46,305 nt of DNA, from UHGV virus genome UHGV-1364013; one strand, written 5' to 3'. A program made the translations under genes and the position numbers. This stretch comes from a virus. Positions 19,627 to 27,432 of the stretch are shown here, one piece after another. The first letter of the stretch is position 1. Every line of letters starts with the position of its first letter. The notes beneath the pieces were generated by a model. It did no database searches, was not told the origin of the DNA, and saw nothing but the letters and a program-made list of their open reading frames with translations.

Positions 19627-19670
19627 CCAGCGCGCCGTAAAACCTCTCCCTTCAGGGGGAGGATATAAAG
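19627..19670. repeat. Solo IS605 left-end (LE) hairpin copy after TTAT: ccagcgcgccgtaaaacctctcccttcagggggaggatataaag
   Basis: About 85% identical to the LE of the full IS at 23742-23790. Its ggagga provides the SD for terS. Confidence 0.55.
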
Positions 19671-20224
19671 TGGGAGTTGTGAGCATGGCGTCAAGATTTG
19701 ATTGGGAATCCATCCGTGCCGAGTACGAAGTAGGGGCGAGCCAGTCCGATCTGTCCAAGCGTTACGGTGTGAGCCGGACAGCCATCCAAAAGCGCATCCG
19801 GGCCGAGGGCTGGGTGCAGGACATTTCCGGCACCGTGAACCGCATGGCGGAGGCCAAGGTTGTGGGCGTGGTTGCAGGCTGCAACCCTCAAAAAAAGGCC
19901 GAAGCCTTGGACCGCGCCGCCGAAGCCAAGGCCGCCGTCATCACCCGCCACCAACGGGAGTGGGATCGACATCAGGCCCTCATTGATGAGGCGTTGTCCC
20001 TGGGCAGCTTCGACAAGGCCAAGCTCGCCAAAATCACAGCCGAGACGATCAAGATCCGGCAGGAGGGCGAGCGCAAGGCGTGGGGCATCGTTGACAAAGC
20101 CGCGTTGGATCACACTTCATCCGACGGTTCGCTATCTCAGCGTCCGGTGGATCTCTCGCACCTCTCTCCGGACGAGCTGCTTCGCCTGACAAAGGAAGCC
20201 TTCAAAACGCCGGATCATGAGTAG
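19670..20224 (+). CDS. terS: Terminase small subunit (HTH-containing); alternative ATG start at 19685
   Basis: Lies directly upstream of terL. N-terminal HTH LSKRYGVSRTAIQKRIR. Stop overlaps the terL start. Confidence 0.5.
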   Translation: MGVVSMASRFDWESIRAEYEVGASQSDLSKRYGVSRTAIQKRIRAEGWVQDISGTVNRMAEAKVVGVVAGCNPQKKAEALDRAAEAKAAVITRHQREWDRHQALIDEALSLGSFDKAKLAKITAETIKIRQEGERKAWGIVDKAALDHTSSDGSLSQRPVDLSHLSPDELLRLTKEAFKTPDHE

Positions 20225-23200
20225 CCCCGCCATCCTTTCCGATATCCGGAAGGCGCTGGCCCGGAGCTGTCTCGCGGCCTTCGTGCGCTACACCATGCCC
20301 GGCTACCGCATGGGATGGGTGCATGAGGAAATCTGTTCCGAGCTGGACGCCTTCCTTGCCGATGTCGTAGCTGGACGTTCCCCGCGCCTCATGCTGACCA
20401 TGCCCCCGCGACATGGGAAACTGTGCGCTGATGATACTCCTGTTTTGACGGTTGATGGGTGGAAAACTCATGGTGCGCTTAAGGTTGGTGATTATGTATT
20501 TCACCCAAGTGGCAAACCTGTGAGGGTTGTTGCTGTGGGCGAGAAAAATTTTGCCACTCATTCTGTTGTTTTTACCAATGGCGACATAATAGATGTGCAC
20601 CTTGATCATGAGTGGCGGGTGTATGACAGGACTAAACCCGGATATAGAACAGTTGAGACACGATACTTTGTGGAGCCAAGCAAAAAAACTAAGGCGCTTA
20701 GGAAGCTGGATAGCGGTATCCCAGACACCAGAGGGCACAGGTATTTGTATCAGGTGGACACAGCTGATGCTCCCCAATGGCCTGCCGTAGAACACGTTAT
20801 CCCGCCATACGTTTTGGGCGTGTGGTTAGGTGATGGAACGTCAATCGCGCCCAGAATAAACATGGCTCCTGATGACGCTTGTGTCGTCAAAATGGAGTTT
20901 GAACGACTAGGTGTGCCAATAACTGGAACATGGGTGCATAGAGATACTGGAGTTGAAACTTTTTCATTTGCCAGCGGCGTGAAAAATAGAAGAAATATAT
21001 TTTCGCAGGCTCTAAAAGATGCTGATCTGCTAAAAAATAAACATATTCCTAATGAGTACAAGCATGATAGCCTAGAAAACAGGCTTGACTTGCTTGCTGG
21101 ACTTATTGATACGGATGGTCATTTTGATAGAAAGACAAACAGATATCGTTTTACAACATCCAATGAGCTGTTAGCGCATGATGTAGAAGAATTGGCCATG
21201 CTATGCGGGTTTGTAGCGCATACAAATATCCCAGCACTAGATAATCGGGAAAGAACGATTAAAAATAAGTCACAGGTTTATGTGGTGTCATTTTTCTTTT
21301 CCGGTGTAGTTGTCCCGTGCAGACTTGAACGGAAAAAAGTTAATAAAACGTTTTCTTCTCTGCGTCGGCGCGTATCCATCAAATGTGTACGAGCGCTAGA
21401 GTCGCCTAAAATGGGGAATTGTATTCAGGTGGATAGTCCAGATGGCTTATATTTAGTTGGCAAACACCTTACGATAACCCACAATAGCGAGCTGGCCTCC
21501 CGCCGCTTCCCGGCCTACGCCTTGGGCCGCTACCCCGATCTATCCGTCATTTCAACGAGCTACGCCGCCGACCTGTCCTCGCGCATGAACCGCGATGTTC
21601 AGCGTGTCATCGACAGCCCGGAATACCGGGAACTCTTCCCGGGAACAGCCCTTTACGGCAAGAATATCCGCACCGTCGGGAACGGCTCTTATCTCCGCAA
21701 CTCGGATATCTTCGAAATCGTGGGGCACGCTGGCTGCTACCGTTCCGCTGGCGTGGGCGGCGGCATCACGGGCATGGGTGGGCATATCGTCATCGTCGAC
21801 GACCCGTTCAAGGACCGGGCGTCCGCCGATTCCCCGACCATCCGCCAGAACGTCTGGGACTGGTACACGTCCACGTTGTACACGCGCCTCGCGCCCGGTG
21901 GAGGGGTGCTCATCATCAACACTCGCTGGCACATGGCTGACCTTTCCGGGCGGCTGCTTGAGGCCGCCGCACGGGGGGAGGGCGACCACTGGCGCGTGGT
22001 AAACTTCCCGGCCATCGCCACGGAGGATGAGCCGCACCGCAAGGCAGGTGAAGCCTTACACCCTGAACGCTACCCGTTGGAGCAGCTTCTTGCCATCAAG
22101 AAAGCCCTCGGCACACGCGACTGGGAGGCCCTGTACCAGCAGCGGCCTACGCCAGACGGCGGCGCCATCTTCAAATCCGAGTGGCTGCGGTTCTGGCTCC
22201 CCAAAGACCTGCCGGAGCAGTTCGACCAGCTCCTTATCTCGTGGGATATGACGTTCAAGGACGGCGACGATACCGACTTTGTTGTGGGGCAGGTGTGGGG
22301 CCGCAAGGGGGCAGACCGCTACCTCCTCGATCAGGTCCGGCGGCGCATGGGATTTACGGACACGGTCGCCGCGTTCCGGGAGCTCGCCGCCAAATGGCCC
22401 GGCGCAGCCCGCAAGCTGGTGGAAGACAAGGCCAACGGCCCGGCGGTCATCGACGCGCTGAAACACGCCGTGCCCGGTATCATCCCCGTGGAGCCGGACG
22501 GCAGCAAGACGGCTCGCGCCCATGCTGTGACCACGTTCTTCGAGGCCGGGAACGTCCTTATCCCGCACCCTGAGCATTGCCCGTGGGCGCGGGAGTACGT
22601 CGCGGAACTGACGCAGTTCCCCGGAGCGCCCCACGACGATCAATGTTTTGCTGCAGGCACTTTAGTTGCGACTTTGCGAGGGGGTATCCCAATTGAAAAA
22701 GTAAAGGAAGGTGATTTTGTTGTGACTCCTCAAGGGTTTAGGCGTGTGTTGTTCGCTGGAAAAACCGGAGAGTCTGTGTTATTGTATCGACATGGAATTT
22801 TTGCAACTGCGAATCATCCGTTCATGAAAACCAGTGGAGAAGTTTGCAAATTTGCAGAAATAGAAAAGTCTGAACTTGTTCACATGACTATAAGGGAGTT
22901 GCTAGTATGGATATTCCGAAAAGAGTTGAATTTAATGGCGTCACCTATGCCCTCATGGCAGGGGGGAAATACTATCTTAGTCAGTCAAAAACAAACGCAG
23001 GTGGGAAAAATCCGAAGGGGCTTCATGTCGCTATTTGGGAATACTACAGTGGCAAGAAAGTCCCTAAAGGGTATGAGATTCATCACAAAGATGGTAATAC
23101 ACATAACAACAATTTTGACAACCTTGAGTGTTTATCACGTTGTGAACACCGCAAAACGGTTAAGCAAAACAAAGAAAAATGCCGTAAGCACCTTGAAGAA

Positions 23201-23717
23201 GTACGCCCTCTTGCTACTGAGTGGCACAGGAGCGAAGAAGGCCGTGCATGGCATCGAGAGCAAAGCAGGAAGGCATACGCAAAAAGAGAGTATACTGAGC
23301 ATGTTTGTGAGTACTGCGGCAAGACGTATAAAACGCGCCATACGGGAAAAAACCGCTTCTGTTCCCATAATTGTGAAATCAAATGGCGATATCACAATGA
23401 ATACGAGCTTGCCGAGGGTGTGTGCCAATGGTGCGGCAAACCGTTCACATACAAGACCGGAACCTGCAGAAAAAACAAAGTACGTAAATTCTGCAGCAAG
23501 TCTTGCAGCACAAGCCACTTCAACGCCCAACGCCGTGCCAGTGTATAACCTCACCGTAGAGGGCGAGCACCTTTATTTTGCTAATGGGGTGCTCGTCCAC
23601 AATTGTGACGCCACCACGCAGGCCCTCCGCGACTTCGATACCAAGCGGCCCATGTGCATCGACACCCGGATACTGCGCCAGCCGCGCATGGAGTTGAGGC
23701 GCATTGGGGGGATTTGA
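20217..23717 (+). CDS. terL: Terminase large subunit precursor with two inteins (mature protein about 493 aa)
   Basis: Exteins carry the P-loop PRHGK(L|S), the ATPase motif VIVDDPFKD and the nuclease domain. Intein boundaries are C...THN|S and C...VLVHN|C. Confidence 0.8.
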   Translation: MSSPAILSDIRKALARSCLAAFVRYTMPGYRMGWVHEEICSELDAFLADVVAGRSPRLMLTMPPRHGKLCADDTPVLTVDGWKTHGALKVGDYVFHPSGKPVRVVAVGEKNFATHSVVFTNGDIIDVHLDHEWRVYDRTKPGYRTVETRYFVEPSKKTKALRKLDSGIPDTRGHRYLYQVDTADAPQWPAVEHVIPPYVLGVWLGDGTSIAPRINMAPDDACVVKMEFERLGVPITGTWVHRDTGVETFSFASGVKNRRNIFSQALKDADLLKNKHIPNEYKHDSLENRLDLLAGLIDTDGHFDRKTNRYRFTTSNELLAHDVEELAMLCGFVAHTNIPALDNRERTIKNKSQVYVVSFFFSGVVVPCRLERKKVNKTFSSLRRRVSIKCVRALESPKMGNCIQVDSPDGLYLVGKHLTITHNSELASRRFPAYALGRYPDLSVISTSYAADLSSRMNRDVQRVIDSPEYRELFPGTALYGKNIRTVGNGSYLRNSDIFEIVGHAGCYRSAGVGGGITGMGGHIVIVDDPFKDRASADSPTIRQNVWDWYTSTLYTRLAPGGGVLIINTRWHMADLSGRLLEAAARGEGDHWRVVNFPAIATEDEPHRKAGEALHPERYPLEQLLAIKKALGTRDWEALYQQRPTPDGGAIFKSEWLRFWLPKDLPEQFDQLLISWDMTFKDGDDTDFVVGQVWGRKGADRYLLDQVRRRMGFTDTVAAFRELAAKWPGAARKLVEDKANGPAVIDALKHAVPGIIPVEPDGSKTARAHAVTTFFEAGNVLIPHPEHCPWAREYVAELTQFPGAPHDDQCFAAGTLVATLRGGIPIEKVKEGDFVVTPQGFRRVLFAGKTGESVLLYRHGIFATANHPFMKTSGEVCKFAEIEKSELVHMTIRELLVWIFRKELNLMASPMPSWQGGNTILVSQKQTQVGKIRRGFMSLFGNTTVARKSLKGMRFITKMVIHITTILTTLSVYHVVNTAKRLSKTKKNAVSTLKKYALLLLSGTGAKKAVHGIESKAGRHTQKESILSMFVSTAARRIKRAIREKTASVPIIVKSNGDITMNTSLPRVCANGAANRSHTRPEPAEKTKYVNSAASLAAQATSTPNAVPVYNLTVEGEHLYFANGVLVHNCDATTQALRDFDTKRPMCIDTRILRQPRMELRRIGGI
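20424..21485 (+). mobile_element. Intein 1 (354 aa) with a LAGLIDADG homing-endonuclease domain, inserted in the terminase Walker-A loop
   Basis: Starts CADDTPVLTVDGW. Contains LDLLAGLIDTDGHF. Ends ITHN followed by +1 Ser. AT-rich relative to its flanks. Confidence 0.75.
22644..23603 (+). mobile_element. Intein 2 (320 aa) in the terminase nuclease domain
   Basis: Starts CFAAGTLVATLRGGIPIEKVKEGDFVVT. Ends GEHLYFANGVLVHN followed by +1 Cys. AT-rich. Confidence 0.7.
22907..23548 (+). CDS. HNH endonuclease ORF nested out-of-frame inside intein 2
   Basis: HHKDGNTHNNNFDNLECLSRCEHRKT is an HNH motif. C-terminal CxxCGK..RFCSxxC repeats. Frame offset +2 relative to terL. Confidence 0.65.
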   Translation: MDIPKRVEFNGVTYALMAGGKYYLSQSKTNAGGKNPKGLHVAIWEYYSGKKVPKGYEIHHKDGNTHNNNFDNLECLSRCEHRKTVKQNKEKCRKHLEEVRPLATEWHRSEEGRAWHREQSRKAYAKREYTEHVCEYCGKTYKTRHTGKNRFCSHNCEIKWRYHNEYELAEGVCQWCGKPFTYKTGTCRKNKVRKFCSKSCSTSHFNAQRRASV

Positions 23718-23810
23718 GGCTGCGTGGGACCCACGCGTTACCCAGCGCGCCGTAAAGCCTCGCCCTTCAGGGCGGGGATATAAGGCGCACCTTAACTGGA
23801 ATTTTTGCCT

Positions 23811-24227
23811 TTAATTGGGCGTTCGTTGAGCTTCGATATACTGCCGCAGGACAGAGATAGGCGCTCCTCCGCAGCTTCCAGCAAAATAACTTGGCGACCA
23901 GAGTGAACCGCCCCAGAGTTTTTTCTGGATCGAAGGATAGCCTTTCTTGCGAATCAGCCTGCTGGATACGCCTTTCAGGCTGTTGACCAAAGACGAAATG
24001 GCTACTTTTGGAGGATAGACGACAAGCAGATGAACATGATCGTCTTCCCCGTCAAATTCAATAAGTTCCGCCTCAAAATCACGGCAAACACTGGCAAATA
24101 TTTCCTTCAAGTCGTCAAGAATGACCTTTGTGAAGACGCCATAGCGATACTTTGTAACAAAGACCAAATGGGCATGAAGAAGGAATACGCAGTGTCTTCC
24201 AGTACGAATATCGTTGACTTTTTTCAT
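23811..24227 (-). CDS. tnpA: IS200/IS605 Y1 HUH transposase TnpA
   Basis: HUH motif HVHLLV and catalytic Tyr region SPSYF. 138 aa. Confidence 0.85.
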   Translation of the reverse strand: MKKVNDIRTGRHCVFLLHAHLVFVTKYRYGVFTKVILDDLKEIFASVCRDFEAELIEFDGEDDHVHLLVVYPPKVAISSLVNSLKGVSSRLIRKKGYPSIQKKLWGGSLWSPSYFAGSCGGAPISVLRQYIEAQRTPN

Positions 24228-24241
24228 AGGCCAACTATGAT

Positions 24242-25450
24242 TTGGCTATGGAAAGATTGCAAGCCTACAAGTTCCAGCTCCGCCCCAAAGCTGAGCAGGA
24301 AAGCCTCATGCGGCGTTTTGCCGGATGTTGTCGTTTCCTTTGGAACAAGGCGCTTGCATTGGAAAAAGAGACCTATGAAAAGGAAGGGAAGCGTCTGGGG
24401 TTTTCCTTGCTCTGCGAAGCCCTTCGGGACTGGAAGAAGGAAAACGACACATCTTTTCTTGCTGAAGCCCATTCTCAAATTCTGCAACAAGCGTTGAAAG
24501 ATCTCGATAGGGCCTACAAAAATTTCTTTGCCAGGCGTGCGGATTTTCCGCGTTTCAAGAGAAAGGGGGTTCATGACGCCTTTCGCTATCCGCAAGGTTT
24601 CAAGCTCGATGAAGGCAACAGTCGCATATTTCTACCTAAAATTGGGTGGGTACGCTACCGCAACAGTCGTAAAATAGAGGGAACACCGAAACAGGTGACA
24701 GTTTCTTTGTCCGCAGGGAAATGGTTTGTTTCTATTCAGACGGAACGAGAAATTCTTGAACCGGTGCATCCTTCGCAAAATATTGTTGGCATAGACATGG
24801 GAGTTGCGCGTTTTGCAACGCTCTCCGATGGTTCTTGCATCAAACCGCTGCACAGTTTCCGAAAGCATGAAAAGAAGCTGGCAAAGCTGCAACGCAAATT
24901 GGCAAAACGAGTGAAGTTTTCCGCCAGCTGGCAGAAGCTCAAAGCCAAAATACAGCGCCTGCACCGTACAATAGCCAATGTACGCAACGATTTTCTGCAC
25001 AAGACAACAACGATGATCAGCAAAAACCACGCTCTTGTCGTGATTGAAGATTTGAAAGTGCGGAATATGTCGCGTTCGGCTTCCGGTACGCTTGAAGTTC
25101 CGGGCAAAAATGTGCGCGCCAAGTCCGGCTTGAACAAGTCCATACTGGATCAGGGATGGTTCGAGTTTCGGCGGCAGCTTGAGTACAAGTTGAAATGGCT
25201 GGGTGGAAAGCTGGTTGTCATACCTCCGCAGTATACCAGTCAGACATGCAGTCATTGTGGATGCGTAGACAGAGCAAACAGACCAACGCAGGCGAAATTC
25301 AAATGTACGGCCTGCGGATTTGAATGTAACGCCGACCATAATGCGGCGTTGAACATTCTGGCGGCCGGGCAGGCCGTGACAGCCTGTGGAGCGGGAAGGG
25401 CTCAAGCGCCCGCATTGAAGCAGGAACCCGCCTATGGCGCGGCTCGTTAG
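24242..25450 (+). CDS. tnpB: TnpB (OrfB_IS605; RuvC-like RNA-guided nuclease with a Zn ribbon)
   Basis: RuvC motifs GIDMG, VIEDLKV and NADHNAALNI. Zn ribbon CSHCGC...CTACG. Confidence 0.85.
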   Translation: MAMERLQAYKFQLRPKAEQESLMRRFAGCCRFLWNKALALEKETYEKEGKRLGFSLLCEALRDWKKENDTSFLAEAHSQILQQALKDLDRAYKNFFARRADFPRFKRKGVHDAFRYPQGFKLDEGNSRIFLPKIGWVRYRNSRKIEGTPKQVTVSLSAGKWFVSIQTEREILEPVHPSQNIVGIDMGVARFATLSDGSCIKPLHSFRKHEKKLAKLQRKLAKRVKFSASWQKLKAKIQRLHRTIANVRNDFLHKTTTMISKNHALVVIEDLKVRNMSRSASGTLEVPGKNVRAKSGLNKSILDQGWFEFRRQLEYKLKWLGGKLVVIPPQYTSQTCSHCGCVDRANRPTQAKFKCTACGFECNADHNAALNILAAGQAVTACGAGRAQAPALKQEPAYGAAR

Positions 25451-25841
25451 AGCCGCTACCGATAGGAATCCCCCGACTTTAGGCGGGGGAGGATGTCAAC
25501 CCAGTACTATGTAGCCTGCTGTAATGGTAGACTATTTTTTTTGAAATCGTAACCCCTCCGTACCTTGACTTCTTCCAGCTTTTGTGCTGTTCTTTTTTCA
25601 CGGTGCTTCAAAACACCTTCGCTGGCGGTAGCCAACCCCGAAACGTGGCCTTTTTTGTGCCCTGTCAAGACTTGTATCCTCTTGGCTGTGGTGTATCCTA
25701 CGGACATTGACTCCGGGTGTGGGCTAATACAATACCGATTCGTCGGGAATATGCCCGCTGTCCAGCGACAGTTTTGAGCACCCGGAGTTTTGCTATTTTG
25801 GCGGCTCCAATGAAAGGTGTCCGACATCCATGCACCCGAAC

Positions 25842-25854
25842 CTTGTTCACGGTG
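25842..25854 (+). promoter_or_regulatory. Conserved motif CTTGTTCACGGTG (copy 2), 34 nt upstream of the portal start; TAGCAT -10-like 24 nt downstream
   Basis: See copy 1. Confidence 0.45.
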
Positions 25855-25887
25855 TGTTTTCTTCTTCGCTCATAGCATGATGCCCCC

Positions 25888-27432
25888 ATGAGCAAGAAGC
25901 GCACTTATCGACACGCCACCTCCATACCCCAAGTGCAACCGTCGCGTCGTCTGAATCTCTCCCCGGACGTGCGCGACGGCCTTGCTCAATCCTTGCCGCC
26001 TACGCCCGACGACATCAGCCGGTTGTACGGCCCTGCGAAGACGCTCGGCGCGCCCGAAGATGTGCAGCTTGCGATGGATGCGCGGCTTGCGGATTCCGGC
26101 GTCTATTCCCTGCTCCAGCACTCGCTTGAGCTTGGGGTCGGGATTGCGCCGCAATTCATGGGCTACGGCGTCCTCCAGAACCTTGCCCAGAACGGCCTGA
26201 TCCGTGCCTGCGTCGAGACGGTATCCGACGATATGACCCGAGCATGGATTGAGTTCAAGCGCGAAGGGGAGGGCGGCGACGAGTCATTGCTCACCGACCT
26301 TGCGCAGGCGTGCAATAGGTTCGCACTGCAACGCCTTTTCCATGAGGCGACCGAGCTTGTGGGGTACGAGGGCGGGGCCTTCCTTTTCATCGACACCGGG
26401 TCCGTCGGCCAAGAGCTGGAACGCCCGCTGAACGTCAGCCCGTATTCCGCCGAACTCAGGCCCGGCGGCGTGCTGCGCTTCGTCGTCATCGACCCCGTGA
26501 ACGTCTTCCCCGGCGACTACAACAGCCTTTCACCGCTTGAGCCGGACTACTTCCGCCCGCGCTGGTGGTGGGTGCTCGGGCAGCGGGTGCACGCCTCGCG
26601 CCTCATCCGATTGGTTGCAAACGAATGCCCGGTGCTGCTGCGGCCCGCCTACAATTTTTTGGGCATCCCGCAGGCGCAGATCCTCTGGGATTACGTCCTG
26701 CATTTTCAGGAATGCCGCGCCGCCGAAGCCCGGCTACTGACCAAGTTTTCGCTGACCGTCTTCAAGACGAAGATGGAAGATATCCTGTACGCGTCCGGGG
26801 GCACGGCACAGATCGATGCCCGCATCCGGTACATGATCCAGTCCATGACCAATGACGGCGTGCTTGCCGTCGACAAGGAATCGGAAGACGTGGTCAAGCT
26901 GGAAACCCCGCTTTCCGGCGTGACCGACATCGTGCGCCAGTCCCTTGAAATCCTCGCTGCCCTGAACCGAACCCCTGCGGTCAAGCTGCTTGGCATCAGC
27001 CCGTCAGGGTTCAATGCCACGGGCGAATCGGACATCCGCAACTACTATGACCATGTCAGGAGCCAGCAGGAGAAAGTCCTGCGCGACGGCATCAAGAAGG
27101 CGCTCGACTGTATCCAGCTCTACCTGCGCGGAACCATCGACCCGTCCGTGACGTTCGACTTCGCACCCCTTGGCGAAGAAGACAGAGCGGCCCTTGCGAC
27201 GCTCCAGAAGACCAAGGCAGACACCATCGCCGTCTACATGGATCGGGACATTATCTCTCAAGAAGAGGCCCGGCAGTCCCTTGCCAGTGACCCGGACAGC
27301 GGCTTCTCCGACATAGACCCGGCGGAAGTGCCGCAGGGCAACGGAATGCCCGACGCCCTGCCGGAAGCCGGGGAAGGGGGCTTGATGCCCGACATCGACG
27401 ACGTGGACAAGGCAGGGGCCGTCTATGGCTAA
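25888..27432 (+). CDS. Portal protein (Mu gp29/DUF935-like)
   Basis: 514 aa. Positioned between terL and the Mu-F-like gene. C-terminal acidic tail. Confidence 0.6.
   Translation: MSKKRTYRHATSIPQVQPSRRLNLSPDVRDGLAQSLPPTPDDISRLYGPAKTLGAPEDVQLAMDARLADSGVYSLLQHSLELGVGIAPQFMGYGVLQNLAQNGLIRACVETVSDDMTRAWIEFKREGEGGDESLLTDLAQACNRFALQRLFHEATELVGYEGGAFLFIDTGSVGQELERPLNVSPYSAELRPGGVLRFVVIDPVNVFPGDYNSLSPLEPDYFRPRWWWVLGQRVHASRLIRLVANECPVLLRPAYNFLGIPQAQILWDYVLHFQECRAAEARLLTKFSLTVFKTKMEDILYASGGTAQIDARIRYMIQSMTNDGVLAVDKESEDVVKLETPLSGVTDIVRQSLEILAALNRTPAVKLLGISPSGFNATGESDIRNYYDHVRSQQEKVLRDGIKKALDCIQLYLRGTIDPSVTFDFAPLGEEDRAALATLQKTKADTIAVYMDRDIISQEEARQSLASDPDSGFSDIDPAEVPQGNGMPDALPEAGEGGLMPDIDDVDKAGAVYG

What the first reader, a model, noticed from the sequence alone, without database searches (positions are those of the whole stretch)
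20217..23717. Terminase large subunit carries two inteins: a LAGLIDADG intein in the P-loop and a second intein in the nuclease domain
Two canonical Cys...HN|(S/C) intein units (20424-21485 and 22644-23603) interrupt terL. Both are AT-rich islands in a gene of about 62% GC. Removing them restores a terminase of about 493 aa. Intein 1 sits inside the Walker-A loop (PRHGKL|C...THN|SELAS) and carries LLAGLIDTDGHF. Terminase is a known intein hotspot, but two inteins with different endonuclease types in one gene, next to an IS605 copy, make this a dense selfish-element pile-up at the packaging locus.
Basis: partly seen in the sequence, partly recalled or inferred. Interest (0 to 1): 0.7.

Follow-up and report, generated by a model that had tools for sequence, protein, structure and literature searches.

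The report
Terminase gene with two inteins
A phage DNA-packaging gene carries two self-splicing protein inserts, and the second hides its own DNA-cutting enzyme gene in a shifted reading frame, a rare layout that proves to be widespread in phage terminases.

Summary
The 1166-aa ORF 20217-23717 is a Terminase_6 large subunit interrupted by two AT-rich inteins. Closely related alleles with either site empty show that removing both gives a 491-aa terminase.

- Intein 1 is not a canonical Cys1 intein. It starts one codon earlier, at Leu (20421-21485, 355 aa). It is a class 3 (Trp/Cys/Thr, "WCT") intein with an in-frame LAGLIDADG endonuclease, at the classic P-loop site GK|S.
- Intein 2 (22644-23603) is a class 1 intein at the nuclease motif HDDQ|C with no in-frame endonuclease. 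Instead a 213-aa HNH gene (22907-23548) lies in the other forward frame, with its own AAGGGAG-N8-ATG. It fills the space between splicing blocks B and F.

The overlap is conserved. In 68 distinct related loci (GC 27-58%) the intein frame has 0 stops, against 1457 in the third frame. dN/dS is about 0.1-0.2 in the HNH frame and about 1 in the intein frame. At least 356 viral loci encode a relative of the HNH, and 78 of the 80 examined are nested. The nested loci checked all lie in terminases.

Free-standing relatives sit just downstream of terL in other phages. Out-of-frame endonucleases in inteins were described in 2025-26 for other nuclease families. This is therefore a new, large member of a known but rare kind.

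The parts
20217..23717 (+). terL precursor ORF, 1166 aa. After removal of both inteins it gives a 491-aa Terminase_6-type large terminase.
   Evidence: Homologues P0001-P0120.
20217..20420 (+). N-extein (residues 1-68), ending in the Walker-A sequence PPRHGK.
   Evidence: Intein-free alleles P0013/14/15/34 read PPRHGK|SELASRR. The blastn junction is 20420|21483.
20421..21485 (+). Intein 1, 355 aa, class 3 (WCT), at the P-loop site GK|S. It starts with Leu and ends THN; the +1 residue is Ser. It has an in-frame LAGLIDADG endonuclease.
   Evidence: Class 3 definition: PMC2807308. Pfam LAGLIDADG_3 scores 28.6 bits and Hom_end 21.4 bits.
20607..20615 (+). Intein 1 block B, His-Glu-Trp. Trp65 is the W of the WCT triplet.
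   Evidence: At least 90% conserved in 46 unique site-a inteins. Coordinates.
20814..20840 (+). First LAGLIDADG motif of intein 1 (LGVWLGDGT).
21090..21119 (+). Second LAGLIDADG motif of intein 1 (LLAGLIDTDG).
21414..21431 (+). Intein 1 block F, GNCIQV. Cys334 is the presumed class 3 nucleophile.
   Evidence: G.CIQV is at least 90% conserved. Coordinates.
21486..22643 (+). Middle extein (386 aa): the rest of the ATPase domain plus the RNase-H-like nuclease domain, ending in PHDDQ.
   Evidence: Pfam Terminase_6N covers residues 425-659 and Terminase_6C residues 674-812 of the precursor.
22644..23603 (+). Intein 2, 320 aa, class 1. It has Cys1, block B T..H (ATANHPF), block F VYNLTVEG and block G VLVHN, with Cys at +1. 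Residues about 86-299 are a linker with no domain of its own.
   Evidence: In the AF2 model the Hint parts score pLDDT 83-93, and most of the linker scores below 50, apart from a predicted helix at residues 136-194 (pLDDT 68-86). The best fold matches are all inteins or Hint domains.
22892..22898 (+). Shine-Dalgarno-like AAGGGAG, 8 nt upstream of the HNH start codon. It lies inside the intein coding sequence.
   Evidence: An SD-like motif is present in 41 of 68 related loci, against a 22% background.
22907..23548 (+). HNH homing-endonuclease gene, 213 aa, HNH_3 / I-HmuI-like, with two C-terminal CxxC...C...C zinc-ribbon motifs. It lies in the frame offset by 2 from terL and entirely inside intein 2.
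   Evidence: Pfam HNH_3 E 1.3e-15. AF2 mean pLDDT 87.9. Best PDB fold match is I-HmuI. dN/dS is 0.09-0.23 in this frame.
23604..23717 (+). C-extein (37 aa plus stop), starting with Cys+1 (CDATTQALRD). Empty alleles have Val at this position.
23743..25835 (.). Neighbouring IS200/IS605 insertion (not part of the inteins), inserted after TTAC 23739-23742. It comprises tnpA 23811-24227 (-), tnpB 24242-25450 (+) and a probable guide-RNA region.
   Evidence: Pfam Y1_Tnp, OrfB_IS605 and Cas12f1-like TNB. Absent in L008 and L085. Rfam sRNA-Xcc1 at 25711-25795. Sequence. The ends are approximate.

Best explanation
terL is translated as a 128-kDa precursor that must excise two inteins to yield the 491-aa packaging ATPase-nuclease.

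Intein 1 (20421-21485) is a class 3 intein in the P-loop.
- It has no N-terminal nucleophile. Its block F Cys334 is expected to attack the Lys68-Leu69 bond.
- The N-extein is then passed to Ser+1, and Asn355 cyclises.
- Its in-frame LAGLIDADG domain is the homing nuclease.

Intein 2 (22644-23603) is a class 1 intein placed just after the nuclease motif HDDQ.
- Its splicing domain is a mini-intein (about 88 N-terminal and about 20 C-terminal residues).
- The loop between them is about 210 codons that encode nothing useful in the terL frame. They only have to stay free of stop codons.
- The same DNA, read in the frame shifted by 2, is a complete HNH homing-endonuclease gene.
- That gene is translated separately, from its own Shine-Dalgarno sequence and ATG inside the terL message.
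- The free HNH protein is expected to cut intein-less terL alleles in co-infecting phages, so that repair copies the intein plus the HNH gene into them.

Shown here: the anatomy, the empty-site alleles, conservation of the overlap, purifying selection on the HNH frame only, and the folds.

Inferred: splicing chemistry, internal initiation, the cleavage target and homing.

The likely origin is a free-standing HNH gene of the kind found just downstream of terL in other phages, which invaded a mini-intein.
For: Anatomy and domains.

Empty sites in alleles with 96-98% identical exteins:
- P0013/14/15/34 lack intein 1 and P0011 lacks intein 2.
- At DNA level the junction is window 20420|21483.

Class 3 features of intein 1, from 46 unique homologues:
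- Position 1 is L/E/Q/N/A.
- HEW, G.CIQV and THN|S are at least 90% conserved.
- These match the definition in PMC2807308.

Recent mobility of intein 1: it is 99-100% identical in exteins that are only 63-76% identical (P0016, P0017).

Overlap in intein 2:
- In the window there are 0 stops in the terL frame and 21 in the third frame.
- Six divergent loci have the same layout.
- 78 of 80 viral loci are nested, always at the same frame offset.
- 68 unique nested ORFs have 0 stops in the intein frame and 1457 in the third frame.
- Synonymous-permutation P values are 0.06 down to below 5e-5 per locus.

Selection:
- Amino-acid identity is 33-79% in the HNH frame and 14-55% in the linker frame.
- Third-position variability is 0.61, against about 0.40 at the other positions.
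- dN/dS is 0.09-0.23 in the HNH frame and 0.5-1.8 in the intein frame.

Folds:
- HNH model pLDDT is 87.9, and its best match is I-HmuI.
- In the intein-frame model only the Hint parts are uniformly confident, and they match solved inteins.

Initiation:
- AAGGGAG-N8-ATG in the window.
- SD-like motif in 41 of 68 loci, against a 22% background.
- A stop immediately before the ATG in some loci.

Site and host specificity:
- HDDx|C in 52 of 62 loci, and the +1 residue is Cys in 62 of 62.
- All hosts sampled are terminases.

Free-standing relatives lie next to terL in phages PAE1, CL2 and Shemara and in locus L036.
Against: - No experiment shows splicing, HNH expression or cleavage.
- Within the window alone, the stop-free terL frame is only modestly improbable (P about 0.007-0.016). 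The HNH protein has few codon pairs that could make a stop in that frame, so the case rests on comparative data.
- 27 of 68 loci, mostly AT-rich ones, have no obvious SD.
- The fold match of the HNH model to I-HmuI is weak overall (E 0.096, TM 0.24-0.29).
- Pfam Intein_splicing scores below its cut-off for intein 2 (25.1 against 35.8 bits), and Hint_2 is just at its cut-off.
- Part of the linker is predicted as a fairly confident long helix, so it may not be entirely inert.
Confidence: 0.8

Rival explanations
1. The HNH domain is made as a fusion with the N-terminal part of intein 2, by programmed ribosomal frameshifting from the terL frame into the HNH frame. It would not come from independent initiation.
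For: - The HNH frame is open for 11 codons upstream of the ATG in the window (22874-22906).
- It is open for longer in some relatives (L001, L012).
- 27 of 68 loci lack a clear SD.
Against: - In several loci a stop codon in the HNH frame lies directly before, or within a few codons of, the start (L002, L030, L069).
- A start codon at the conserved M(E/D)(I/V)(P/Q) position is almost universal, and an SD-like motif is enriched there at about three times background.
- Free-standing homologues begin at the same residue.
- No slippery heptamer was looked for or seen.
Confidence: 0.07
2. The out-of-frame HNH ORF is a dead relic. The terL frame stays open only because terminase is essential, and the HNH frame is open by inertia.
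For: - Selection on terL would by itself remove stops from the intein frame.
- Mini-inteins without the HNH region exist at the same site (P0083, P0096).
Against: - The HNH frame is intact in 68 unique loci spanning 27-58% GC. It has dN/dS of 0.09-0.23 and 30 invariant residues, including the HNH and zinc ligands.
- In the same DNA the intein frame evolves at dN/dS of about 1.
Confidence: 0.04
3. Intein 1 is an ordinary class 1 intein starting at Cys (20424). Splicing would then leave an extra Leu in the Walker-A loop (GKLS).
For: - Cys is present at that position in 31 of 46 homologues.
- Three WCT inteins with an N-terminal Ser or Cys are known (PMC2807308).
Against: - Empty alleles read GK|S with no Leu, and the DNA insertion is 355 codons.
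- The Cys is replaced by L/I/V/F in 15 of 46 homologues, whereas the block F Cys is conserved.
- A GKLS P-loop would disrupt the GK[ST] motif (established knowledge of Walker-A motifs).
Confidence: 0.04
4. Insert 2 is an artefact (two compensating frameshift errors around an in-frame HNH intein), or a self-splicing intron that carries an HNH ORF.
For: Group I introns commonly carry HNH ORFs, and a single assembly can contain indel errors.
Against: - The same two-frame layout occurs in more than 100 independent assemblies and in cultured phage genomes such as Clostridium phage phiCDHM19.
- The terL frame has no stop in any of 68 loci.
- Hint blocks A, B, F and G are in the terL frame.
- Rfam finds no intron at 20000-23800.
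Confidence: 0.01

Closest known systems
Class 3 (WCT) inteins in ATPase P-loops. The prototype is the mycobacteriophage Bethlehem DnaB intein; examples also occur in phage terminase large subunits (Tori et al. 2010, PMC2807308; Kelley et al. 2016, PMC5050341).
   Same: Intein 1 has a non-nucleophilic first residue, the Trp(B)/Cys(F)/Thr(G) triplet, Ser+1, insertion between the invariant Lys and the Ser/Thr of the Walker-A motif, and a LAGLIDADG endonuclease.
   Different: Nothing essential differs. The host is a Terminase_6-type TerL of a 56%-GC uncultured phage rather than an actinophage. A non-conserved Cys at intein position 2 imitates a class 1 start.
[quoted passage not shown]
   Same: A separate endonuclease ORF on the same strand, in 'frame 3' relative to the intein, between the splicing blocks. 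The intein frame is kept open. The proposed origin is invasion of an intein by a free-standing endonuclease gene.
   Different: - The endonuclease family differs: HNH_3 / I-HmuI-like with two zinc ribbons. There was no Endonuclease_7 hit. tblastn found none of the phages that paper names for this architecture (Angelicase, Affeca, Keitabear, Sedona); one actinophage, Tetrasphaera phage TJE1, does carry the HNH nested in terL.
- The insertion site is in the terminase nuclease motif HDD.
- The family is far larger and taxonomically broad.
- A Shine-Dalgarno sequence is often present.
Cyanobacterial dnaX intein with an out-of-frame (+2 ORF) LAGLIDADG endonuclease (Phillips et al., bioRxiv 10.64898/2026.09.14.751524; first noted by Gorbalenya 1998, as cited there).
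   Same: A broadly distributed intein whose endonuclease is in an overlapping frame. dN/dS is low in the endonuclease frame and raised in the intein frame across the overlap. Mini-intein alleles coexist.
   Different: The nuclease is LAGLIDADG rather than HNH. The host gene is cellular rather than a phage terminase.
[quoted passage not shown] 2025, PMC11855218).
   Same: [quoted passage not shown] Its stop codon lies at the very end of the insert.
   Different: ShiLan has no detectable splicing domain and no RBS, and it uses a GTG start. Here the HNH lies inside a bona fide Hint-domain intein that can remove the junk peptide.
Fractured genes: split inteins with a free-standing endonuclease gene between the halves (Dassa et al. 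2009, PMC2677866).
   Same: A free-standing-type endonuclease gene occupies the position of the intein's endonuclease domain.
   Different: The host gene here is not split. One continuous ORF runs through the endonuclease gene in another frame, so splicing is in cis.

Membership tests
Class 3 intein (intein 1) | The first intein residue is not Cys, Ser or Thr. | tested here: met
   Boundary fixed by intein-free alleles (GK|SELAS) and by the 1065-nt DNA insertion. Residue 1 is Leu. Across 46 homologues it is L/E/Q/N/A.
Class 3 intein (intein 1) | WCT triplet: Trp in block B (position 12), Cys in block F (position 4), Thr in block G (position 5). | tested here: met
   HEW (Trp65), GNCIQV (Cys334) and ITHN (Thr353) are each at least 90% conserved in 46 homologues. 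Block positions were assigned by motif context, not by a curated block alignment.
Class 3 intein (intein 1) | Ser or Thr at +1 and a C-terminal Asn. | tested here: met
   THN|S in 46 of 46.
Class 3 intein (intein 1) | Splicing through a block F Cys branched intermediate. | not testable with these tools
   Needs mutagenesis and biochemistry.
LAGLIDADG homing endonuclease domain (intein 1) | Two LAGLIDADG motifs in frame between the splicing blocks. | tested here: met
   LGVWLGDGT and LLAGLIDTDG are present. Pfam LAGLIDADG_3 scores 28.6 bits (cut-off 22.5) and Hom_end 21.4 bits (cut-off 21.1).
Class 1 intein (intein 2) | Cys/Ser at position 1, block B T-x-x-H, blocks F and G, terminal Asn, and a nucleophile at +1. 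| tested here: met
   - C1, T55..H58, VYNLTVEG, VLVHN and Cys+1 are present.
- C1, T, H, N and Cys+1 are invariant or nearly invariant in the relatives.
- Hint_2 scores 33.2 bits in the precursor (cut-off 28.4), while Intein_splicing is below its cut-off.
- The AF2 Hint parts match solved inteins with probability 0.97-1.0.
Class 1 intein (intein 2) | A precise empty site in homologues. | tested here: met
   P0011, P0012, P0016-18, P0034 and others read HDDQ|VDATTQ without the insert. The +1 residue differs: Val in empty alleles, Cys in occupied ones.
[quoted passage not shown] | A complete endonuclease ORF in another frame, between the splicing blocks, with the intein frame uninterrupted. | tested here: met
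   Window. 68 unique relatives have 0 stops in the intein frame and 1457 in the third frame. The HNH start lies a median of 88 aa after the intein start, and the HNH stop a median of 19 aa before the intein end.
[quoted passage not shown] | Purifying selection acts on the endonuclease frame, not on the intein frame, within the overlap. | tested here: met
   dN/dS is 0.09-0.23 against 0.5-1.8. The codon-position pattern agrees.
HNH (His-Me finger) homing endonuclease, HNH_3 / I-HmuI-like | An HNH motif with conserved His and Asn residues, and the matching fold. | tested here: met
   - Pfam HNH_3 scores 57.1 bits (cut-off 24.8).
- H59, H60, N67, N68, N72 and H81, and eight Cys residues, are invariant in 26 sequences.
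- The AF2 model has pLDDT 87.9, and its best PDB match is I-HmuI at a weak E of 0.096.
HNH (His-Me finger) homing endonuclease, HNH_3 / I-HmuI-like | Site-specific cleavage of the empty allele, and homing. | not testable with these tools
   Only indirect evidence is available. The same intein is found in terL exteins of different identity, and three sites are variably occupied among phages 88-99% identical in DNA.
Split intein / fractured gene | The host gene is broken into two ORFs flanking the endonuclease gene. | tested here: not met
   terL is one continuous ORF through the HNH gene.
Group I/II intron with an HNH ORF | A ribozyme structure, with the host frame interrupted. | tested here: not met
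   No Rfam intron match in 20000-26000 at E up to 0.1. The host frame is never interrupted.

The most novel reading that the evidence does not exclude
The HDD-site terminase inteins are a large and ancient lineage in which the homing endonuclease has apparently always been a separate, overlapping, independently translated HNH gene.
- At least 798 protein clusters at 50% identity carry the linker-frame translation.
- The lineage occurs in many bacterial phyla, in CPR bacteria and in MAGs labelled archaeal, and in at least three terminase Pfam families.
- Free-standing sister genes sit just downstream of terL.

Together these would make it the clearest natural series for the 'free-standing endonuclease invades a mini-intein' origin of mobile inteins. 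It would also be a stable two-gene partnership rather than a transient intermediate.
Probability: 0.45. Interest if true: 0.7.

Novelty: new member of a known kind. Interest (0 to 1): 0.55.

Why it matters
For annotation:
- The HNH gene is invisible to standard gene callers. GenBank records such as Clostridium phage phiCDHM19 annotate only terL. In one metagenomic contig the caller dropped terL instead.
- Reading intein 1 as class 1 would mis-predict the mature P-loop.

For biology:
- The family gives hundreds of independent examples of a protein-coding overlap in which one frame is constrained only to avoid stop codons.
- It includes a ready-made series of free-standing HNH next to terL, HNH nested in an intein, and mini-intein. 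This series can test how inteins acquire endonucleases.
- It can also show whether internal translation starts inside a heavily translated late gene can support homing.

For tools:
- It offers a compact class 1 splicing domain that tolerates a loop of about 210 residues that is mostly predicted to be unstructured.
- It also offers a terminase-targeting HNH nuclease family.

Tried and rejected
- megablast of terL against cultured phages found no match.
- phmmer of the mature TerL against PDB sequences found no hit. Assigning HDD as a nuclease catalytic motif therefore rests on the extent of Pfam Terminase_6C and on general knowledge.
- The look-up of encoding contigs for two NCBI-named HNH proteins (P0163, P0218) found nothing on record.
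The nearest genome hit for the HNH is an uncultured Sutterella MAG at 53%, so the host remains unknown.
- The stop-avoidance test on the window alone is weak (P 0.007-0.016), so I moved to comparative data.
- My first regex for C-terminal junctions missed most loci, because the penultimate residue is often Ser or Gly rather than His. This was fixed.
- Rejected explanations: sequencing frameshifts, an intron, a split intein, and a class 1 reading of intein 1 (see the rival explanations).
- I tested whether the actinophage EndoVII-like out-of-frame endonucleases belong to the same family. tblastn at E up to 1e-3 did not find the phages named for them.

Full report
**1. The observation**

The window has a single 1166-aa ORF at 20217..23717 (+).
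- Pfam finds Terminase_6N (precursor residues 425-659) and Terminase_6C (674-812).
- It finds LAGLIDADG_3 and Hom_end inside the first insert, and Hint_2 plus a sub-threshold Intein_splicing match in the second.
- The two inserts are AT-rich islands, with GC 0.44 and 0.45 against 0.65 for the flanking terL sequence.
- Context: a probable small-terminase ORF lies upstream (19670-20224, no Pfam hit). An IS200/IS605 element follows terL, and then the portal gene (25888-27432).

**2. Homologues and empty sites**

A search with the precursor returned 1880 relatives. Mapping extein and intein segments onto the best 120 shows four insertion sites in this terminase family.
- Site a is the P-loop, where intein 1 sits.
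- Site b lies around extein residue 157-169.
- Site c lies around residue 218-221.
- Site d is at residue 458, where intein 2 sits.

Proteins with 96-98% identical exteins lack intein 1 (P0013, P0014, P0015, P0034) or intein 2 (P0011, P0012). They align straight through the junctions.

At DNA level, viral contigs L008 and L009 join window 20420 directly to 21483. L008 instead carries a 1017-nt insert at site b. Three sites are thus variably occupied among phages 88-99% identical in DNA.

Intein 1 is 99-100% identical in terminases whose exteins are only 63-76% identical (P0016, P0017). That is the signature of recent horizontal spread.

**3. Intein 1 is class 3, not a canonical Cys1 intein**

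- Empty alleles read PPRHGK|SELASRR. The window reads PPRHGK-LCADD...ITHN-SELAS.
- The insert is therefore 355 codons starting at Leu (20421), as the 1065-nt DNA gap confirms.
- In 46 unique site-a inteins, position 1 is L/E/Q/N/A and never Cys, Ser or Thr. The Cys at position 2 is replaced by L/I/V/F in 15 of them.
- His-Glu-Trp in block B, G-x-Cys-Ile-Gln-Val in block F and Thr-His-Asn|Ser are at least 90% conserved.
- This is exactly the definition of class 3 inteins: a non-nucleophilic first residue, the Trp/Cys/Thr triplet, and Ser or Thr at +1. They are usually found in ATPase P-loops, including those of phage terminases (Tori et al., PMC2807308).
- Kelley et al. (PMC5050341) call the Lys|Thr position the classic P-loop intein site.

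Intein 1 with its two in-frame LAGLIDADG motifs is thus an ordinary member of a known class. The mature terminase is 491 aa. This matches P0013, which is 811 aa, or 491 + 320.

**4. Intein 2 and its hidden gene**

Intein 2 (22644-23603) has a class 1 signature: Cys1, block B T..H (ATANHPF), block F VYNLTVEG, block G VLVHN and Cys+1. It sits right after the conserved PHDDQ motif at the end of the RNase-H-like nuclease domain. Empty alleles have Val where the occupied allele has Cys+1.

Its central 210 or so residues match no domain in the terL frame. In the frame offset by 2, however, there is a 213-aa ORF (22907..23548).
- It has a strong HNH_3 match (E 1.3e-15).
- It has an ATG preceded by AAGGGAG at a spacing of 8 nt.
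- Its TAA stop falls one codon into block F.
- The third forward frame has 21 stops over the same stretch. The terL frame has none.

**5. Is the overlap more than chance?**

In the window alone the evidence is modest.
- Synonymous-codon permutation of the HNH ORF gives a stop-free terL frame in 1.6% of trials, and codon-order shuffling in 0.7%.
- Only 14 of 212 adjacent residue pairs could encode a stop in that frame.

The comparative evidence is decisive.
- Six divergent intein-2 homologues (25-43% identity, GC 29-55%) all show the same layout. Per-locus permutation P values run from 0.06 to below 5e-5.
- An alignment of called HNH homologues (A1) retrieved 356 loci encoding a relative in IMG/VR. 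In 78 of the best 80, the HNH ORF is nested at the same frame offset inside a 750-1250-aa ORF.
- These ORFs are terminases 21-98% identical to the window's extein. The junction is HDDx|C in 52 of 62 and the +1 residue is Cys in 62 of 62.
- Over 68 unique nested ORFs (GC 27-58%), the intein frame has 0 stops and the third frame 1457.
- A profile of the linker as read in the terL frame finds 798 clusters at 50% identity (206 at E up to 1e-10) among 1.84 billion representatives.
- Among 54 of the best-scoring of these proteins scanned with Pfam, the only host domains found were terminase families: Terminase_6, Terminase_3 and the T7-like RNase H domain.
- In one-genome-per-species contigs, 42 of 66 loci are nested (41 at the same offset) and 24 are free-standing. 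They span Proteobacteria, Firmicutes, Bacteroidota, Cyanobacteria, Acidobacteria, CPR and MAGs labelled archaeal.

**6. Which frame is under selection?**

- Across the overlap, HNH-frame amino-acid identity is 33-79%, against 14-55% in the intein frame.
- Nucleotide differences per HNH codon position are 0.42, 0.39 and 0.61.
- Nei-Gojobori estimates give dN/dS of 0.09-0.23 in the HNH frame and 0.5-1.8 in the intein frame.
- AlphaFold2 models the HNH protein confidently (mean pLDDT 87.9). Its best solved-structure match is the HNH homing endonuclease I-HmuI, though weakly.
- The intein-frame model is confident only in the Hint parts (residues 1-90 and 298-320, pLDDT 83-93). These match solved inteins with probability 0.97-1.0.
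- Most of the linker scores below 50. The exception is one long helix that mirrors the conserved HNH core. That helix is unexplained.

**7. How it most likely works**

Shown here:
- the anatomy and the empty sites;
- conservation of the overlap and frame-specific selection;
- the folds.

Inferred:
- the precursor splices twice, by class 3 chemistry at the P-loop and class 1 chemistry at HDDQ|C;
- the HNH protein is made separately by internal initiation;
- it cuts empty terL alleles and so drives homing of the intein plus HNH unit.

Internal initiation is favoured for four reasons.
- An SD-like motif lies 7-17 nt upstream in 41 of 68 loci, against a 22% background.
- There is a recurring TTAAAGGAGTT context.
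- In some loci a stop codon in the HNH frame directly precedes the ATG.
- Free-standing homologues start at the same residues.

A frameshift fusion remains possible but unlikely.

Free-standing relatives lie between terL and the portal gene in Pseudomonas phage PAE1, Lactobacillus phage CL2, Salmonella phage Shemara and locus L036. Site d is only 37 codons from the terL stop. The simplest origin is therefore capture of a mini-intein by a terL-adjacent free-standing HNH gene. Mini-inteins exist at site d (P0083, P0096).

**8. Comparison with what is known**

- Out-of-frame or antisense endonucleases inside inteins were noted by Gorbalenya in 1998, as cited. They were revisited only recently.
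- Gosselin et al. (bioRxiv 2025) list four non-canonical architectures in actinophage inteins. These are in-frame HNH, antisense LAGLIDADG, antisense VSR-like, and out-of-frame ('frame 3') endonuclease VII-like, and some occur in terminases. They propose invasion by free-standing endonucleases.
- Phillips et al. (bioRxiv 2026) show an out-of-frame LAGLIDADG in the cyanobacterial dnaX intein with the same dN/dS pattern. They call broadly distributed examples rare.
- Arsenault et al. 2025 describe an out-of-frame HNH insertion in phage methylases that lacks any splicing domain.
- I found no description of an out-of-frame HNH_3-type gene inside a bona fide intein, nor of inteins at the terminase HDD site. 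Kelley et al. found that all mycobacteriophage TerL inteins lie in the ATPase domain.
- tblastn of the HNH against 50,697 phage records found none of the phages Gosselin et al. name for the EndoVII-like architecture.
- It did find nested, unannotated copies in Clostridium phages phiCDHM19 and phiCD119, Acinetobacter phage Highwayman, Tetrasphaera phage TJE1, a Rhodobacteraceae phage and Vibrio phages.
- The literature library is incomplete, so prior description elsewhere cannot be excluded.

**9. Verdict**

- The two-intein observation is real, but it is ordinary for this terminase family.
- Intein 1 was mis-classified and mis-bounded by one codon.
This arrangement defines a large, terminase-specific and apparently undescribed family.
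- It works like the recently reported non-canonical inteins, so I file it as a new member of a known (rare) kind.
- Interest is moderate to good for specialists in mobile elements and overlapping genes.

Noticed in passing
window 23739-25835: An IS200/IS605 element (tnpA 23811-24227 on the minus strand, tnpB 24242-25450 on the plus strand) is inserted right after a TTAC (23739-23742) between terL and the portal gene. It is absent from the close relatives L008 and L085, which join window 23655 to 25836 directly. A GC-rich hairpin follows the TTAC.
   Followed up: partly
window 25711-25795 (+) and 25383-25426 (+): An Rfam sRNA-Xcc1 match sits just at the gathering score (53.4 against 53 bits). 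A sub-threshold RAGATH-18 match overlaps the 3' end of tnpB. Both are probably the TnpB-associated guide RNA or the right end of the IS.
   Followed up: no
L009:4298-5185: A near-identical phage has a different cargo at the same terL-portal junction: a 295-aa ORF that looks like an ORF6N/antirepressor-type protein. Together with the IS here and the free-standing HNH genes in other phages, this makes the junction an insertion hot spot.
   Followed up: no
L008:1369-2386; proteins P0012, P0015, P0016, P0034, P0051, P0116: The same terminase family has further intein sites. Site b is equivalent to window 21780/21792, and site c lies near extein residue 220. One protein carries up to three inteins (P0116, 1436 aa). 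Mini-inteins occur at site a (P0042-P0046, about 145 aa) and at site d (P0083, P0096).
   Followed up: partly
window 23049-23225 (intein 2 residues 136-194, terL frame): The 'junk' linker contains a hydrophobic stretch (FITKMVIHITTILTTLSVYHVV...) that AlphaFold2 predicts as one long helix with pLDDT 68-86. Yet this frame evolves at dN/dS of about 1. It mirrors the conserved HNH core, so the prediction may be an artefact.
   Followed up: no
L007:2346-4814; L088 (NC_028996.1) 443-2842: Annotation pipelines mishandle the overlap. In L007 the gene caller dropped the 822-aa terL and called the HNH plus antisense ORFs. In Clostridium phage phiCDHM19 only terL is annotated and the nested HNH is missing.
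   Followed up: yes
L147; alignment A4: There are two oddities in the family. In one genome locus the HNH relative is nested at the other frame offset (+2). One of 54 proteins carrying the linker-frame translation also has an in-frame HNH_3 hit.
   Followed up: no
window 23604-23606 versus empty alleles (P0011 and others): The +1 residue of intein 2 is Cys in all 62 occupied alleles. In closely related empty alleles the same position is Val (HDDQ|VDATTQ). Homing must therefore co-convert this codon, or only a subset of alleles can be invaded.
   Followed up: partly
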